This document shows positions 31,313-34,855 of a stretch of DNA of 64,000 nt, piece by piece (position 1 is the first letter of the stretch; the number at the start of each line of letters is the position of its first letter). Both the position numbers and the translations under genes were made by a program. The notes beneath the pieces were generated by a model. That model saw nothing but the letters and a program-made list of their open reading frames with translations. It ran no database searches and was not told the DNA's origin. Source of the stretch: Escherichia coli (lineage in GTDB: Bacteria; Pseudomonadota; Gammaproteobacteria; Enterobacterales; Enterobacteriaceae); NCBI RefSeq assembly GCF_044324875.1, contig NZ_CP172185.1. The stretch is one strand, 5' to 3'.

Positions 31313-34300
31313 ATGGGTAAAGGCAGCAGTAAGGGGCATACCCCGCGCGAAGCGAAGGACAACCTGAAGTCCACGCAGTTGCTGAGTGTGATCGATGTCA
31401 TCAGCGAAGGGCCGATACAAGGACCGGTGGATGGATTAAAAAGCGTGCTGCTGAACGGTACGCCGGTGCTGGACAGTGAGGGGAATACCAACATCTCCGG
31501 TGTCACGGTGGTGTTCCGTGCCGGTGAGCAGGAGCAGACACCGCCGGAGGGGTTTGAATCCTCCGGCTCCGAGACGGTGCTGGGTACGGAAGTGAAGTAC
31601 GACACGCCGATTACCCGGACCATCACGTCGGCAAACATCGACCGTCTGCGCCTGACCTTCGGTGTGCAGGCACTGGTGGAAACCACCTCAAAGGGGGACC
31701 GGAATCCGTCGGAAGTCCGCCTGCTGGTTCAGATACAGCGTAACGGTCGCTGGTTAACGGAAAAAGACATCACCATTAAGGGCAAAACCACCTCGCAGTA
31801 TCTGGCCTCGGTGGTGGTGGGTAACCTGCCGCCGCGCCCGTTCAGTATCCGGATGCGCAGGATGACGCCGGACAGCACCACAGACCAGCTGCAGAACAAA
31901 ACGCTCTGGTCGTCATACACCGAAATCATCGATGTGAAACAGTGCTACCCGAACACGGCACTGGTCGGTGTGCAGGTGGATTCGGAGCAGTTCGGCAGCC
32001 AGCAGGTGAGCCGTAATTATCATCTTCGCGGGCGCATTCTGCAGGTGCCGTCGAACTATAACCCGCAGACGCGGCAATACAGCGGTATCTGGGACGGAAC
32101 GTTTAAACCGGCATACAGCGATAACCCGGCCTGGTGTCTGTGGGATATGCTGACCCACCCGCGCTACGGCATGGGGAAACGTGTTGGCGCAGCGGATGTG
32201 GACAAATGGGCGCTGTATGTCATCGGCCAGTACTGCGACCAGTCGGTGCCGGACGGCTCTGGTGGCACGGAGCCGCGCATCACCTGTAATGCCTGGCTGA
32301 CCACACAGCGTAAGGCGTGGGATGTGCTCAGTGATTTCTGCTCGGCGATGCGCTGTATGCCGGTATGGAACGGGCAGACGCTGACGTTCGTGCAGGACCG
32401 GCCGTCGGATAAGGTGTGGACCTATAACCGCAGTAATGTGGTGATGCCGGATGATGGCGCGCCGTTCCGCTACAGCTTCAGCGCCCTGAAGGACCGCCAT
32501 AATGCCGTTGAGGTGAACTGGAGTGACCCGGATAACGGCCAGGAGACGGCGACAGAGCTTGTGGAGGACACGCAGGCCATTGCCCGTTACGGTCGTAACG
32601 TCACGAAGATGGATGCCTTTGGCTGTACCAGCCGGGGGCAGGCACACCGCGCCGGGCTGTGGCTGATTAAAACGGAGCTGCTGGAAACGCAGACCGTGGA
32701 CTTCAGCGTGGGTGCTGAAGGGCTTCGCCATGTACCGGGCGATGTCATTGAAATCTGTGATGATGACTATGCCGGTATCAGCACCGGTGGTCGTGTGCTG
32801 GCGGTGAACAGCCAGACCCGGACGCTGACGCTCGACCGTGAAATCACGCTGCCATCCTCCGGTACCACGCTGATAAGCCTGGTTGACGGAAGTGGCAATC
32901 CGGTCAGCGTGGAGGTTCAGTCCGTCACTGACGGCGTGAAGGTAAAAGTGAGCCGGGTTCCTGACGGCGTTGCCGAGTACAGCGTGTGGGGGCTGAAGCT
33001 GCCGACGCTGCGCCAGCGCCTGTTCCGCTGCGTGAGTATCCGTGAGAACGACGACGGCACGTATGCCATCACCGCCGTGCAGCATGTACCGGAAAAAGAG
33101 GCCATCGTGGATAACGGGGCGCACTTTGACGGCGACCAGAGCGGCACGGTGAATGGTGTCACGCCGCCAGCGGTGCAGCACCTGACTGTCGAAGTCACCG
33201 CAGACAGCGGGGAGTATCAGGTACTGGCCCGCTGGGACACGCCGAAGGTGGTGAAAGGCGTGAGTTTCATGCTTCGCCTGACCGTGGCAGCGGATGACAG
33301 CAGTGAGCGGCTGGTCAGCACGGCCCGGACGACGGAAACCACATACCGCTTCAGGCAGCTGGCGCCGGGGAACTACAGGCTGACAGTCCGGGCAGTAAAT
33401 GCCCGGGGGCAGCAGGGAGACCCGGCGTCGGTATCGTTCCGGATTGCCGCACCGGCAGCGCCGTCGCGGATTGAGCTGACGCCGGGCTATTTTCAGATAA
33501 CCGCCACGCCGCATCTTGCGGTTTATGATCCGACGGTACAGTTTGAGTTCTGGTTTTCGGAAAAGCGGATTACCGATATCAGGCAGGTTGAAACCACAGC
33601 CCGTTATCTTGGTACCGGAAGTCAGTGGCTTGTCTCCGGCCAGAATATTAAACCTGGCCATGATTATTACTTTTATATCCGCAGTGTTAACACTGTCGGT
33701 AAATCGGCATTCGTGGAGGCAGTCGGTCGGGCGAGTAATGATCCTGCCGGTTACCTTAATTTTTTCAGGGGGGCGATAAATAAAACGCATCTGGGACGGG
33801 AGATCAATGAACGCATTGATGCCTCTGCACGGCGCACTGAAGTTGAGCAACTGGAGAATGCGATTAACCGCGAAATGACGCAGCTGGAGAATGCGATTAA
33901 CCGCGAAATGACGCAGCTGGAGAAAGATGTGAGGCAGCGTGCGGAGCGTGATATCGCAGAGGTGACGAAAAAAATCACGGCGTCTGAAAACAGCATAACG
34001 GAACTGGTGGCGAAAAAGAGCGGTGAACAGTCGCTGGCCATTGCGAAAGTCGACAGGAAAGTTGACAGCGTGAGCAGTGAAATCCGGCAGACAGTGAGCA
34101 GGAGCACGGAGGAGAACAGCCGACAGATAGCGCAGGTCAGGCAGTATGTTGATGATAAAAGTGCGCAAATAAGTACTGTTGTGGCGAAAAAGAGCGGTGA
34201 ACAGTCAATGGCCATTGCGGAAGTTGACAGAAAAGTTGACAGGATGGGCAGCGAAATCCGGCAGACAGTAAGCAGGAGCACGGAGGAGAACAGCCGACAG

Positions 34301-34855
34301 ATAGCGCAGATCAGACAGTATGTTGATGATAAGGGAAGTCAGATCACACAGAGCACGGATAAAAAACTGGGATCCTGGAATGCCAGCATTGAGCAGATAC
34401 AGAAAGTTCAGGAGGACACGCGCCGGAACCTGAACAGCATGTGGGCTGTGAAGCTGCAGCAGACACGGGATGGACGTCTCTATATTGCAGGTATTGGTGC
34501 CGGAATCGAAAATACGTCTGACGGAATTCAGAGTCAGATCCTGATGCAGGCAGATCGTATTGCGATGATTAACCCGGAAAATGGCAATACAACACCTTTG
34601 TTTGTGGCTCAGGGTGATCAGCTGTTCATGAATGATGTTTTCATGAAAAAACTGACCGTGGATTTTGCCAGAGTGACGGGAGATATCCGGTCAGATAATT
34701 TTCATTCCGGTAGTCCGGGGTGGCGTTTATCAAGAAACGGCAGCCTTGAAATTAACTCAGGAAGGCCCGGCGCAGGCCGCCTGTTTTTCAATGGCGAGCG
34801 AATCGACGTATATGACGATAACAATGTGTTAAGAGTACGACTGGGGAGACTGTAA
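31313..34855 (+). CDS. J: Host specificity / central tail fibre protein J with repeat-containing C-terminal region
   Basis: 1180 aa; N-terminal two thirds lambda J-like; C-terminal region has tandem repeats. Confidence 0.9.
33851..33916 (+). repeat. Tandem 33-nt in-frame repeat in J ([11 protein letters not shown] x2)
   Basis: GAGAATGCGATTAACCGCGAAATGACGCAGCTG duplicated head-to-tail. Confidence 0.8.
34007..34354 (+). repeat. Tandem 174-nt in-frame repeat in J (58-aa unit x2)
   Basis: VAKKSGEQS(L/M)AIA(K/E)VDRKVD...[13 protein letters not shown](V/I)RQYVDDK repeated with a few substitutions. Confidence 0.8.

What the first reader, a model, noticed from the sequence alone, without database searches (positions are those of the whole stretch)
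33836..34360. Tandem in-frame repeats in the C-terminal part of J
An 11-aa unit is exactly duplicated and a 58-aa unit is duplicated with a few substitutions, forming a coiled-coil-like insertion before the distal end of J, which normally determines receptor binding. This could be a variable spacer affecting host range.
Basis: seen in the sequence. Interest (0 to 1): 0.45.

Follow-up and report, generated by a model that had tools for sequence, protein, structure and literature searches.

The report
Length-variable helical shaft of tail-tip protein J
The repeats are real in-frame duplications that lengthen the alpha-helical shaft of a prophage's central tail fibre in fixed steps, and related E. 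coli prophages carry different numbers of them, a tidy but fairly ordinary case of fibre-length variation.

Summary
J (window 31313-34855, 1180 aa) holds an 11-aa unit [11 protein letters not shown] twice (aa 846-867; 32/33 nt). It also holds a 58-aa unit twice (aa 899-956 and 957-1014; 47/58 aa, 146/174 nt). Both are in frame.

The repeats lie between the second Ig/FNIII domain and the beta-prism (Pfam Phage_Tail_Tip). In lambda gpJ this position is the short alpha-helical shaft (residues 809-861). Here the shaft is about 225-230 aa. Its hydrophobic period is 3.63 residues (29/8), not a heptad, and it reads as seven 29-residue rows. The units equal whole numbers of helical turns: 11 aa is about 3, 29 aa is 8, 58 aa is 16.

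Copy number varies among close alleles. The 11-aa unit occurs once or twice, and not at all in a sister lineage. The 58-aa unit occurs once, twice or three times. The extra third copy is 0-1 nt from its neighbour, and the single copy is a head-of-A/tail-of-B chimera. Both point to recombination between repeats.

The same shaft is joined either to a lambda-like receptor-binding domain or, as here, to a short T1/HK022-like tip followed by a separate small-gene locus with a Cor-like lipoprotein.

An effect on fibre reach or host range is inferred, not shown. The F7-pyocin fold-switch motif is not enriched. Interest is modest.

The parts
31313..34855 (+). Gene J (tip attachment / central tail fibre protein), 1180 aa. 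Residues 1-836 are 93% identical to lambda J. The shaft and distal end differ from lambda.
   Evidence: ORF list. Pfam FNIII-A, Phage-tail_3, Ig_J, Ig_J_second, Phage_Tail_Tip. NCBIfam lambda_TipJ 1980 bits against a cut-off of 1950. BLASTP against lambda J.
33743..34441 (+). Extended alpha-helical shaft (about aa 811-1043), seven 29-residue rows. It corresponds to lambda gpJ AHS residues 809-861 plus an insertion of about 180 aa.
   Evidence: No Pfam domain between aa 819 and 1025. Hydrophobic period 3.63 with 0/500 shuffles reaching it. AF2 DSSP helix for residues 22-251 of the 790-1180 fragment, pLDDT 46. Lambda structure description (PMC11101478). Alignment A1.
33847..33912 (+). Two copies of the 33-nt / 11-aa hendecad unit ([11 protein letters not shown], aa 846-867). 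A partial third copy runs to 33924.
   Evidence: The copies are 32/33 nt identical and identical in protein.
34007..34180 (+). 58-aa unit A (aa 899-956), equal to two 29-residue rows.
34181..34354 (+). 58-aa unit B (aa 957-1014). It shares 146/174 nt and 47/58 aa with unit A.
34388..34765 (+). Beta-prism 'central straight fibre' domain (Pfam Phage_Tail_Tip PF09327, aa 1026-1151).
   Evidence: It aligns to lambda gpJ 842-941 in solved structures 8iyk and 8xcj.
34628..34852 (+). Short distal tip (about aa 1106-1180) of the T1 gp33 / HK022-HK106 gp24 / DEV gp56 type. It replaces lambda's receptor-binding domain.
   Evidence: BLASTP and sequence comparison with HK106 J. PDB hits 9l9p_S, 23gd_D and 9ze4_N. 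Alignment A1.
34855..35115 (+). 86-aa ORF. Its ATG overlaps the J stop codon (TAATG). It is the first gene of the putative receptor-binding locus.
   Evidence: PHROG 557 E=2.8e-4. Syntenic with HK022 p24.
35115..35777 (+). 220-aa ORF. Its ATG overlaps the previous stop codon (TGATG). It is a candidate separate receptor-binding protein.
   Evidence: PHROG 425 E=3e-27. Weak BLASTP hit to HK106 p25, E=9e-9.
35799..36044 (+). 81-aa lipoprotein-like ORF, Cor-like (superinfection exclusion).
   Evidence: PHROG 1119 Cor E=8e-7. NCBIfam lamb_exclu_cor 28.4 bits, below the cut-off of 31. BLASTP to HK106 Cor E=2e-8.

Best explanation
The repeats are recent in-frame tandem duplications inside the trimeric alpha-helical shaft of the central tail fibre protein J. 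The shaft is the rod that links the FNIII collar at the tail-tip cone to the distal beta-prism and receptor-binding tip.

The shaft is a non-heptad helical bundle with 29 residues per 8 turns, built from 29-residue rows. Its DNA repeats recombine with each other by unequal crossover or slippage, adding or removing whole structural periods: 11 aa (about 3 turns, about 1.6 nm), 29 aa (8 turns) or 58 aa (16 turns, about 8.7 nm). Each step is a near-integer number of turns, so the hydrophobic seam and the rotational register of the distal domains are kept.

The result is an allelic series of fibre lengths, with shafts of about 145 to 283 aa against about 53 aa in lambda.

- Shown here: the anatomy, the periodicity, the copy-number polymorphism and the recombination signatures.
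- Inferred: that the shaft is one continuous parallel trimer.
- Inferred: that its length sets how far the receptor-binding tip reaches from the tail tip, for example through O-antigen or in step with the side fibres, and so modulates adsorption rather than receptor specificity.
For: - **Location.** The repeats lie in the Pfam-free gap between Ig_J_second (716-818) and Phage_Tail_Tip (1026-1151). Lambda's AHS sits at the same position (PMC11101478). The lambda PDB chains align only to the flanks.
- **Periodicity.** The hydrophobic period is 3.63 with power 4.08, against a shuffle maximum of 0.75±0.22 (0/500). The power at 3.5 is about 0. The period persists after removing the duplicate copies and in the single-unit PhiR40_1 shaft. 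The 29-residue row layout conserves positions 12, 15, 19, 26 and 29/1.
- **Indel sizes.** The 11-, 29- and 58-aa steps equal 3.03, 8.00 and 16.00 turns.
- **Copy number.** Among 14 close alleles read directly, the 11-aa unit is x1 in 9 and x2 in 5. The 58-aa unit is x1 in L016, x2 in 11, and x3 in L003 and L007. The sister lineage has 0x11 and 1x58 (PhiR40_1, P0008, P0013, P0016). It is found in 712 of 5426 complete genomes at constant length in the rows sampled. The CE10/IAI39 allele has 7-aa and 29-aa duplications.
- **Recombination signatures.** The third copy is A-type and 0-1 nt from unit A. The single unit in L016 is A at diagnostic sites 27-67 and B at sites 90-174.
- **Core conservation.** Substitutions between A and B at core positions are conservative (L to M, V to M, V to I).
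- **Modularity.** The same shaft is joined to two different distal ends.
- **Precedent.** Long alpha/beta central fibres are known in T1 gp33, about 370 Å by AF3 (PMC11945409).
Against: - No experiment or trimer model supports a single continuous parallel coiled coil. The AF2 monomer model has pLDDT 46 and shows a helix break near aa 934-939.
- No phenotype links shaft length to adsorption or host range.
- Copy number shows no evident relation to side-fibre length in the few loci compared.
- Both 3-copy alleles lie in prophages whose side-fibre gene is cut by insertion sequences, so some variants may be neutral changes in decaying prophages.
- The 1-copy chimera (L016) comes from a metagenome contig and could be an assembly collapse.
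- The duplicated form is rare: 22 records, roughly 15 distinct genomes, of 5426.
Confidence: 0.7

Rival explanations
1. The shaft is a metastable fold-switch element like that of the F7 pyocin central fibre. On receptor binding, the coiled coil would convert into a beta-prism and release energy to open the tail tip. Each 29-residue row would become one beta-hairpin, so copy number would tune the stroke and the stored energy rather than passive reach.
For: - The F7 pyocin J-like protein switches a 163-aa trimeric coiled coil into a beta-prism. The switch is predicted for 21 of 24 siphophage homologues (PMC12874032).
- Lambda's own AHS partly refolds into beta-strands on LamB binding (PMC11101478).
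- The shaft here is followed directly by a beta-prism that could act as a seed.
- The HK106 shaft, with the same tip type and similar length, is enriched for the SxSxxMxxLxS motif: 10 hits against 2.5±1.6 (0/1000). Its forward and reverse hits recur every 30 residues or so, close to the 29-residue period here.
Against: - The window's shaft is not enriched for the motif: 2 hits against 1.6 expected, 473/1000 shuffles.
- It is highly charged (33.5% K/R/D/E) and poor in Ala (8%), whereas S positions in the F7 class are 68% Ala.
- AF2 with a shallow alignment gave helix only, at low confidence.
- The authors state that lambda and T5 do not show the extensive switch.
Confidence: 0.15
2. The copy-number differences are selectively neutral slippage or recombination products in resident, partly decaying prophages. 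They have no consequence for infection.
For: - Both 3x58 alleles lie next to IS-disrupted side-fibre genes.
- L004 J is frameshifted and L005 J is truncated by IS66.
- The duplicated lineage is rare.
- Direct repeats of 33 and 174 nt are intrinsically unstable.
Against: - All variants keep the reading frame and change length only by whole structural periods.
- Units A and B have diverged by 16% in DNA, yet hydrophobic core positions change only conservatively. This implies long retention under purifying selection.
- The 2-unit shaft has been recombined onto two different distal ends and occurs in IMG/VR viral contigs.
- In-frame bias is also expected simply because frameshifted J genes are lost or annotated as pseudogenes, so this point is weak.
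Confidence: 0.12
3. The repeat region itself contacts the receptor and determines host specificity.
For: J is annotated as 'host specificity protein', and the region is hypervariable in length among alleles.
Against: - The region is a charged helical rod separated from the fibre end by the beta-prism and the distal tip.
- In lambda the receptor contacts lie in the C-terminal RBD loops.
- The same shaft is combined with a lambda-like RBD or with a T1/HK022-like tip plus a downstream RBP locus.
- In relatives, specificity maps to the distal GpJ domain or to the downstream locus (PMC8594841; bioRxiv 10.64898/2026.04.02.716166).
Confidence: 0.03

Closest known systems
Alpha-helical shaft (AHS, residues 809-861) of bacteriophage lambda gpJ
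   Same: It holds the same position in the same protein family, between FNIII-2 and the beta-prism central straight fibre. The flanks are homologous: the window's aa 790-838 and 1024-1123 align to lambda 790-838 and 842-941. Residues 1-836 are 93% identical. In lambda it is a three-helix bundle (PMC11101478).
   Different: The shaft here is about 225-230 aa against about 53. The extra 180 aa or so lies between the lambda segments that behave differently on triggering (809-840 and 841-861). It has a clear 29/8 periodicity and recent tandem repeats at the DNA level, none of which occur in lambda J. The distal end is not lambda's LamB-binding RBD.
Long central fibres of T1 gp33 and HK022/HK106 gp24 (J-like proteins with a separate receptor-binding locus)
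   Same: - Overall length is similar (1172 and 1183 aa against 1180).
- Each has a helical shaft of roughly 220 aa followed by a beta-prism and a short conserved tip.
- Small genes and cor follow directly downstream.
   Different: - The shaft sequences are unrelated in detail. The whole proteins are about 31% identical, and the tblastn match over the C-terminal query is about 25% identical.
- The HK106 shaft has a 3.54 period and no DNA tandem repeats.
- The HK106 shaft carries the F7-type motif.
- The N-terminal 836 aa here are lambda-type.
F7 pyocin central fibre protein fold-switching coiled coil (PMC12874032)
   Same: It is a J-like protein with a long trimeric coiled coil immediately upstream of a beta-prism, and the segment length is comparable (163 aa).
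   Different: The defining SxSxxMxxLxS pattern is not enriched here and the composition is charged rather than Ala-rich. No evidence for two conformations was obtained.
DEV gp56-gp55-gp54 receptor-binding fibre (PDB 9ZE4; PMC12892993) and the Drexlerviridae RBP loci (PMC8594841)
   Same: The last 60 aa or so of J align to the C-terminus of gp56 (E=3e-8). Two small genes follow with overlapping stop and start codons, as described for gp56-55-54.
   Different: The virus type and host differ, and the downstream proteins are not detectably homologous to known FhuA, LptD, BtuB or YncD binders. This bears on the distal end, not on the repeats.
Copy-number-variable non-heptad coiled-coil stalks of bacterial surface fibres, such as trimeric autotransporter adhesin stalks (from general knowledge, not tested here)
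   Same: These are rod-like trimers with hendecad or pentadecad periodicity and polar core layers, whose length changes by whole repeat units between strains.
   Different: The protein family and assembly context are unrelated. This is an analogy only.

Membership tests
Lambda-type tip attachment protein J (NCBIfam NF049904 lambda_TipJ) | Whole-protein score at or above the curated cut-off | tested here: met
   1980 bits against a cut-off of 1950.
Lambda-type tip attachment protein J (NCBIfam NF049904 lambda_TipJ) | Domain order: FNIII-A, hub (Phage-tail_3), two Ig/FNIII domains, helical shaft, beta-prism (Phage_Tail_Tip) | tested here: met
   Pfam hits at aa 86-207, 330-498, 610-714, 716-818 and 1026-1151.
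Lambda-type tip attachment protein J (NCBIfam NF049904 lambda_TipJ) | Lambda-like C-terminal receptor-binding domain (the region after '...KRLTAPTITSGGNPP') | tested here: not met
   The window's J diverges at '[12 protein letters not shown]' and ends 75 aa later. The alignment with lambda stops at about aa 1115. Sister alleles L008, L010 and L016 do carry the lambda-like domain.
Lambda-type tip attachment protein J (NCBIfam NF049904 lambda_TipJ) | Gene position after the L, K and I tail-tip genes | tested here: met
   RefSeq annotation of the 99.9% identical locus L001 reads: minor tail protein L, C40 peptidase (K), tail assembly protein (I), gpJ. Matching ORFs are present in the window.
J-like central fibre with a separate receptor-binding locus (T1 / HK022 / Drexlerviridae / DEV type) | Short conserved C-terminal tip homologous to T1 gp33, HK022 gp24 or DEV gp56 | tested here: met
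   PDB hits for the last 110 aa: 9l9p_S E=1.4e-10, 23gd_D E=5e-12, 9ze4_N E=3e-8. The sequence also resembles the HK106 tip.
J-like central fibre with a separate receptor-binding locus (T1 / HK022 / Drexlerviridae / DEV type) | Small genes directly downstream of J, translationally coupled | tested here: met
   TAATG at 34853-34857 and TGATG at 35113-35117. The locus is syntenic with HK106 p24 and p25. It is absent from alleles with a lambda-like RBD.
J-like central fibre with a separate receptor-binding locus (T1 / HK022 / Drexlerviridae / DEV type) | Cognate superinfection-exclusion lipoprotein (Cor or Llp type) in the locus | tested here: inconclusive
   For the 81-aa ORF: PHROG Cor E=8e-7. 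NCBIfam Cor scores 28.4 bits, below the cut-off of 31. Identity to HK106 Cor is 30%, E=2e-8.
J-like central fibre with a separate receptor-binding locus (T1 / HK022 / Drexlerviridae / DEV type) | The downstream protein binds the fibre tip and an outer-membrane receptor | not testable with these tools
   This needs a complex structure, pull-down or genetics.
Fold-switching coiled coil of central fibre proteins (F7 pyocin type) | Recurrent SxSxxMxxLxS pattern (forward and reverse) along the helical segment | tested here: not met
   The window has 2 full matches against 1.6±1.3 in shuffles (473/1000). The positive control, the HK106 shaft, has 10 against 2.5±1.6 (0/1000).
Fold-switching coiled coil of central fibre proteins (F7 pyocin type) | Both a coiled-coil and a beta-prism conformation predicted or observed | tested here: inconclusive
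   Only a monomer AF2 run was possible. It gave helix at pLDDT 46. No multimer or CF-random run was available.
Canonical heptad (left-handed) coiled coil | Hydrophobic periodicity of 3.5 residues | tested here: not met
   The best period is 3.63. Power at 3.5 is 0.10 against 3.97 at 3.625.
Diversity-generating retroelement target (TR/VR pair) | Mismatches confined to adenines of one copy | tested here: not met
   The 28 mismatches include C/T and C/G changes, and A occurs in either copy. The copies are adjacent and both are translated.

The most novel reading that the evidence does not exclude
The 29-residue rows could be modular fold-switch units: 8 helical turns in the primed state and one beta-hairpin in the triggered state. 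On that reading the natural 1-, 1.5-, 2- and 3-unit alleles would be a graded series of 'spring lengths' that set the stroke and energy of tail-tip opening. This would extend the F7-pyocin mechanism to a lambda-type J with a different, charged sequence code.
Probability: 0.12. Interest if true: 0.65.

Novelty: new member of a known kind. Interest (0 to 1): 0.33.

Why it matters
The central fibre of lambda-like phages positions the receptor-binding tip and passes the trigger for DNA ejection to the tail. This locus provides a natural allelic series in which only the helical shaft changes, from about 145 to 283 aa in exact structural quanta, on an otherwise near-identical J protein.

That series is a ready-made test of two ideas. 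One is that the shaft is a passive spacer, giving reach through O-antigen or matching the side fibres. The other is that it is an active, energy-storing element as proposed for F-type pyocins.

For annotation, receptor specificity in this allele should be sought in the tip and the downstream locus, not in the repeats. The repeats also explain why many database J entries are fragments at contig ends.

Tried and rejected
- **AF2 monomer model of aa 790-1180.** Mean pLDDT is 46, so only the secondary structure was used and no fold search was run on it.
- **PDB search with the shaft alone.** It returned only insignificant coiled-coil noise.
- **Megablast of the shaft against 50,697 phage records.** No sequenced phage carries the duplicated form. 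Only the flanks match.
- **F7-type fold-switch motif scan.** The motif is not enriched in this shaft.
- **Diversity-generating retroelement reading.** Rejected on the mismatch spectrum.
- **Opposite-strand ORF 33751-34281 (176 aa).** No PHROG match. It was treated as a shadow ORF.
- **Rfam scan of 33500-36200.** Nothing reached threshold.
- **Search of 1.84 billion representatives with one 58-aa unit.** Only 16 hits. The multi-stretch hits P0133 and P0135 are unrelated proteins with 14-residue repeats. P0121 shows two 29-aa duplications but is not in the contig index, so it may be an artefact.
- **Receptor assignment for the 220-aa ORF by tblastn.** Only homologues of about 26% identity were found, so no receptor can be inferred.
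- **Linked pseudo-trimer AF2 run.** Considered and not run, because linker topology would bias the parallel-versus-antiparallel outcome.
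Full report
**1. The observation**

The window holds one long ORF at 31313-34855 (+), 1180 aa. 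Tandem Repeats Finder reports a 33-nt repeat at 33847-33924 (2.4 copies, 97% matches) and a 174-nt repeat at 34007-34332 (1.9 copies, 92%). The repeat finder gives the same pairs.

In the J frame the 33-nt unit encodes [11 protein letters not shown] at aa 846-856 and 857-867. The two copies are identical in protein and differ in DNA by one synonymous base. A partial third 'QLE' follows.

The 174-nt units encode aa 899-956 (unit A) and 957-1014 (unit B). They share 47/58 residues and 146/174 nt, with 9 synonymous and 11 non-synonymous codon differences. Five of the amino-acid differences fall in the last seven residues.

Both periods are multiples of three. The identical arrangement occurs in independent complete genomes (TUM1886 at 99.9%, F1022).

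**2. Where the repeats sit in the protein**

Pfam finds these domains:
- FNIII-A, aa 86-207
- the hub domain Phage-tail_3, aa 330-498
- Ig_J, aa 610-714
- Ig_J_second, aa 716-818
- Phage_Tail_Tip (PF09327), aa 1026-1151

Nothing significant lies between aa 819 and 1025. NCBIfam names the protein lambda_TipJ, at 1980 bits against a cut-off of 1950. Residues 1-836 are 93% identical to lambda J.

[quoted passage not shown] Lambda chains in the PDB align to the window's aa 790-838 and 1024-1123 and skip everything between. The protein alignment A1 shows the same gap.

So the repeats lie in an AHS expanded by about 180 residues. They do not lie directly in front of the receptor-binding end.

**3. 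Nature of the shaft**

A Fourier analysis of hydrophobic residues over aa 820-1043 peaks at 3.63 residues per turn. Its power is 4.08, against a shuffle maximum of 0.75±0.22, and 0 of 500 shuffles reach it. There is essentially no power at the heptad value of 3.5. The result holds after removing one copy of each duplicated unit, and it holds in the single-unit shaft of phage PhiR40_1.

Written in rows of 29, aa 841-1043 form seven rows with conserved hydrophobic positions 12, 15, 19, 26 and 29/1. Small or polar residues occupy the remaining two core layers. The 58-aa unit is thus two 29-residue rows. The 11-aa unit is one hendecad (L-x3-I-x3-M-x2).

AF2 on the monomer (aa 790-1180, 12-sequence alignment) gives helix from aa 811 to 1040 with one break near 934-939, then beta structure. 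Mean pLDDT is only 46, as expected for one chain of an obligate trimer, so I use it for secondary structure only.

At about 0.15 nm per residue (textbook value), the shaft would be about 34 nm, against about 8 nm in lambda. One 58-aa unit adds about 8.7 nm and one 11-aa unit about 1.6 nm. These lengths are inferred.

**4. Alleles elsewhere**

*Close alleles.* In 5,426 complete E. coli genomes, 22 records match the region at 95% identity or better. Eight of these have the same record length and are probably one genome. I read nine of them (L001-L009), two IMG/VR contigs (L014, L015) and two metagenome contigs (L016, L017).

Tally of the 14 alleles read directly:

| Feature | State | Alleles |
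|---|---|---|
| 11-aa unit | x2 | window, L001, L003, L007, L009 |
| 11-aa unit | x1 | the other nine |
| 58-aa unit | x3 | L003, L007 |
| 58-aa unit | x1 | L016 |
| 58-aa unit | x2 | the other eleven |

*Sister lineage.* A sister lineage at about 60% identity in the shaft has no [11 protein letters not shown] unit and a single 58-aa unit. It includes phage PhiR40_1 and proteins P0008, P0013 and P0016. This form occurs in 712 of 5,426 genomes. All 30 full-length rows sampled across the ranking span 724-725 nt.

*Other variants.* Another variant (P0018) has an extra 7 aa and an extra 29 aa. It is found at 99% identity or better in 12 complete genomes, including CE10 and IAI39.

*Wider distribution.* No sequenced phage in the 50,697-record collection has the duplicated form. 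One 58-aa unit finds only 16 relatives among 1.84 billion cluster representatives. TRF finds no DNA tandem repeats in the shafts of lambda, PhiR40_1 or HK106 J.

The feature is variable.

**5. How copy number changes**

At the 28 sites that distinguish units A and B, the three-unit alleles read A-A-B. The extra unit is 0-1 nt from unit A. This is a recent duplication whose crossover must lie in the identical first 26 nt of the unit.

The single unit of L016 is A at sites 27-67 and B at sites 90-174. That is the product expected from recombination between units A and B within a shared stretch. Because L016 is a metagenome contig, assembly collapse cannot be excluded.

A and B themselves differ at 16% of nucleotides. 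Their core positions change only conservatively (L to M, V to M, V to I), so the two-unit state is older and has been kept under constraint.

All indels seen are near-integer numbers of turns at 3.625 residues per turn: 11 aa is 3.03 turns, 29 aa is 8.00 and 58 aa is 16.00. The 7-aa indel is 1.93 turns. Length therefore changes without rotating the distal domains relative to the collar. This last step is an inference from geometry.

**6. The distal end and its neighbours**

After the beta-prism, the window's J ends in about 75 residues that resemble the tips of three other proteins:
- HK106/HK022 gp24
- T1 gp33 (PDB 9l9p_S)
- gp56 of Pseudomonas phage DEV (9ze4_N)

It does not resemble lambda's RBD.

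Three small ORFs follow: 86 aa, 220 aa and an 81-aa lipoprotein-like ORF. The first two junctions overlap by one base, TAATG and TGATG. The order matches HK106: J, p24, p25, cor. Sequence support is as follows:
- PHROG 557 for the 86-aa ORF, PHROG 425 for the 220-aa ORF and Cor PHROG 1119 for the 81-aa ORF
- weak BLASTP hits to the HK106 counterparts
- the NCBIfam Cor model at 28.4 bits, just under its cut-off of 31

Alleles with a lambda-like RBD (L004, L008, PhiR40_1) lack these ORFs.

The literature describes this layout. Dedicated receptor-binding proteins and exclusion factors are encoded directly downstream of J-like genes (PMC8594841, PMC11990801, bioRxiv 10.64898/2026.04.02.716166). 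DEV gp56 recruits gp55 and gp54, the LptD binder (PMC12892993).

The same two-unit shaft occurs with both kinds of distal end, 10 against 4 of the alleles read. The shaft therefore behaves as an independent module and is unlikely to determine which receptor is used.

**7. Mechanism and rivals**

*Best explanation (about 0.7).* The repeats form a length-variable, non-heptad trimeric helical shaft that grows and shrinks by recombination between its own repeats. It acts as a spacer that sets the reach of the receptor-binding tip. The anatomy, periodicity, polymorphism and recombination signatures are shown. The trimeric continuous rod and the functional effect are inferred.

*Main rival.* In the F7 pyocin, a 163-aa coiled coil of the J-like protein converts into a beta-prism and powers tail opening. 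The switch is predicted in many siphophage homologues and is marked by a SxSxxMxxLxS pattern (PMC12874032). I scanned for that pattern. The HK106 shaft is strongly enriched, with 10 matches against 2.5±1.6 (0/1000 shuffles). The window's shaft is not, with 2 matches against 1.6 (473/1000). Its composition is also charged rather than Ala-rich. The fold-switch reading is not excluded, since lambda's AHS also partly refolds, but this defining feature was tested and not met.

*Neutral slippage.* A neutral-slippage reading gains some support from the IS-damaged prophages that carry the three-unit alleles. The long-term conservation of two diverged units argues against it.

*Other readings rejected.*
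- Direct receptor contact by the repeats: see section 6.
- Assembly artefact: independent complete genomes share the arrangement.
- Diversity-generating retroelement target: the mismatch spectrum does not fit.
- Antisense gene or RNA element: searches found nothing.

**8. Novelty and score**

Long alpha/beta central fibres are known in T1 (PMC11945409), in HK022-like phages and in F-pyocins. The protein here is an annotated gpJ. Three details appear not to be described in the papers I could search: the recent tandem duplications, the 29/8 periodicity, and the quantised allelic series on a lambda-type J. They are variations within a known kind. I rate the finding a new member of a known kind, with interest about 0.33. 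Its main value is as a natural length series for testing spacer against spring models of the central fibre.

Noticed in passing
window 34855-36044: Three small ORFs follow J: 86 aa, 220 aa and an 81-aa Cor-like lipoprotein. The first two junctions have 1-nt stop/start overlaps. The set is syntenic with HK022/HK106 p24-p25-cor and is present only in alleles whose J has the short T1/HK022-like tip. It is probably a separate receptor-binding and superinfection-exclusion module with an unknown receptor. No phage record matches it at megablast level.
   Followed up: partly
window 35799-36044: The 81-aa lipoprotein-like ORF (signal peptide with a Cys lipobox) lies in a stretch with no listed feature in the near-identical RefSeq loci, for example the gap 6178-6518 in L001. 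It scores just below the NCBIfam Cor cut-off (28.4 against 31 bits).
   Followed up: partly
window 36117-37445 (repeats 36582-36997): The side tail fibre gene has collagen-like Gly-X-Y repeats with TRF periods of 45, 90 and 135 nt. Its length varies among otherwise near-identical prophages: 442 aa here, 457 aa in L001 and about 601-616 aa in L002, L004, L006 and L009. This is a second length-variable fibre in the same prophage.
   Followed up: no
L003 6448-9186; L007 6072-8687: Both prophages with three 58-aa units have the side tail fibre gene interrupted by IS66 or IS256-family elements. L004 J is frameshifted and L005 J is truncated by IS66. Several carriers of this J lineage are decaying prophages.
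   Followed up: partly
window 31313-33820 versus 33821-34855: J is a mosaic. Residues 1-836 are 93% identical to lambda J. From there the shaft (no match to lambda), the beta-prism (39% over the aligned stretch) and the tip (HK022/T1-like) diverge. The recombination breakpoint lies at the start of the shaft.
   Followed up: partly
protein P0121: This partial J has two extra 29-aa duplications. One is in the shaft ([29 protein letters not shown] x2) and one is in the beta-prism ([29 protein letters not shown] x2). It is not in the contig index, so it may be a real variant or an assembly artefact.
   Followed up: partly
database hits: All 120 listed proteins matching the shaft are fragments of 138-424 aa, and most are labelled 'partial' by their source, often from very short contigs. 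The repeats and the many J paralogues per genome may break draft assemblies here. Copy-number surveys should therefore use long-read genomes.
   Followed up: no
L013 (HK106 J shaft, aa ~800-1020): The HK106/HK022-type shaft is significantly enriched for the F7-pyocin fold-switch motif SxSxxMxxLxS (10 against 2.5 expected). Forward and reverse hits alternate every 13-17 residues. This makes it a candidate fold-switching coliphage fibre.
   Followed up: partly
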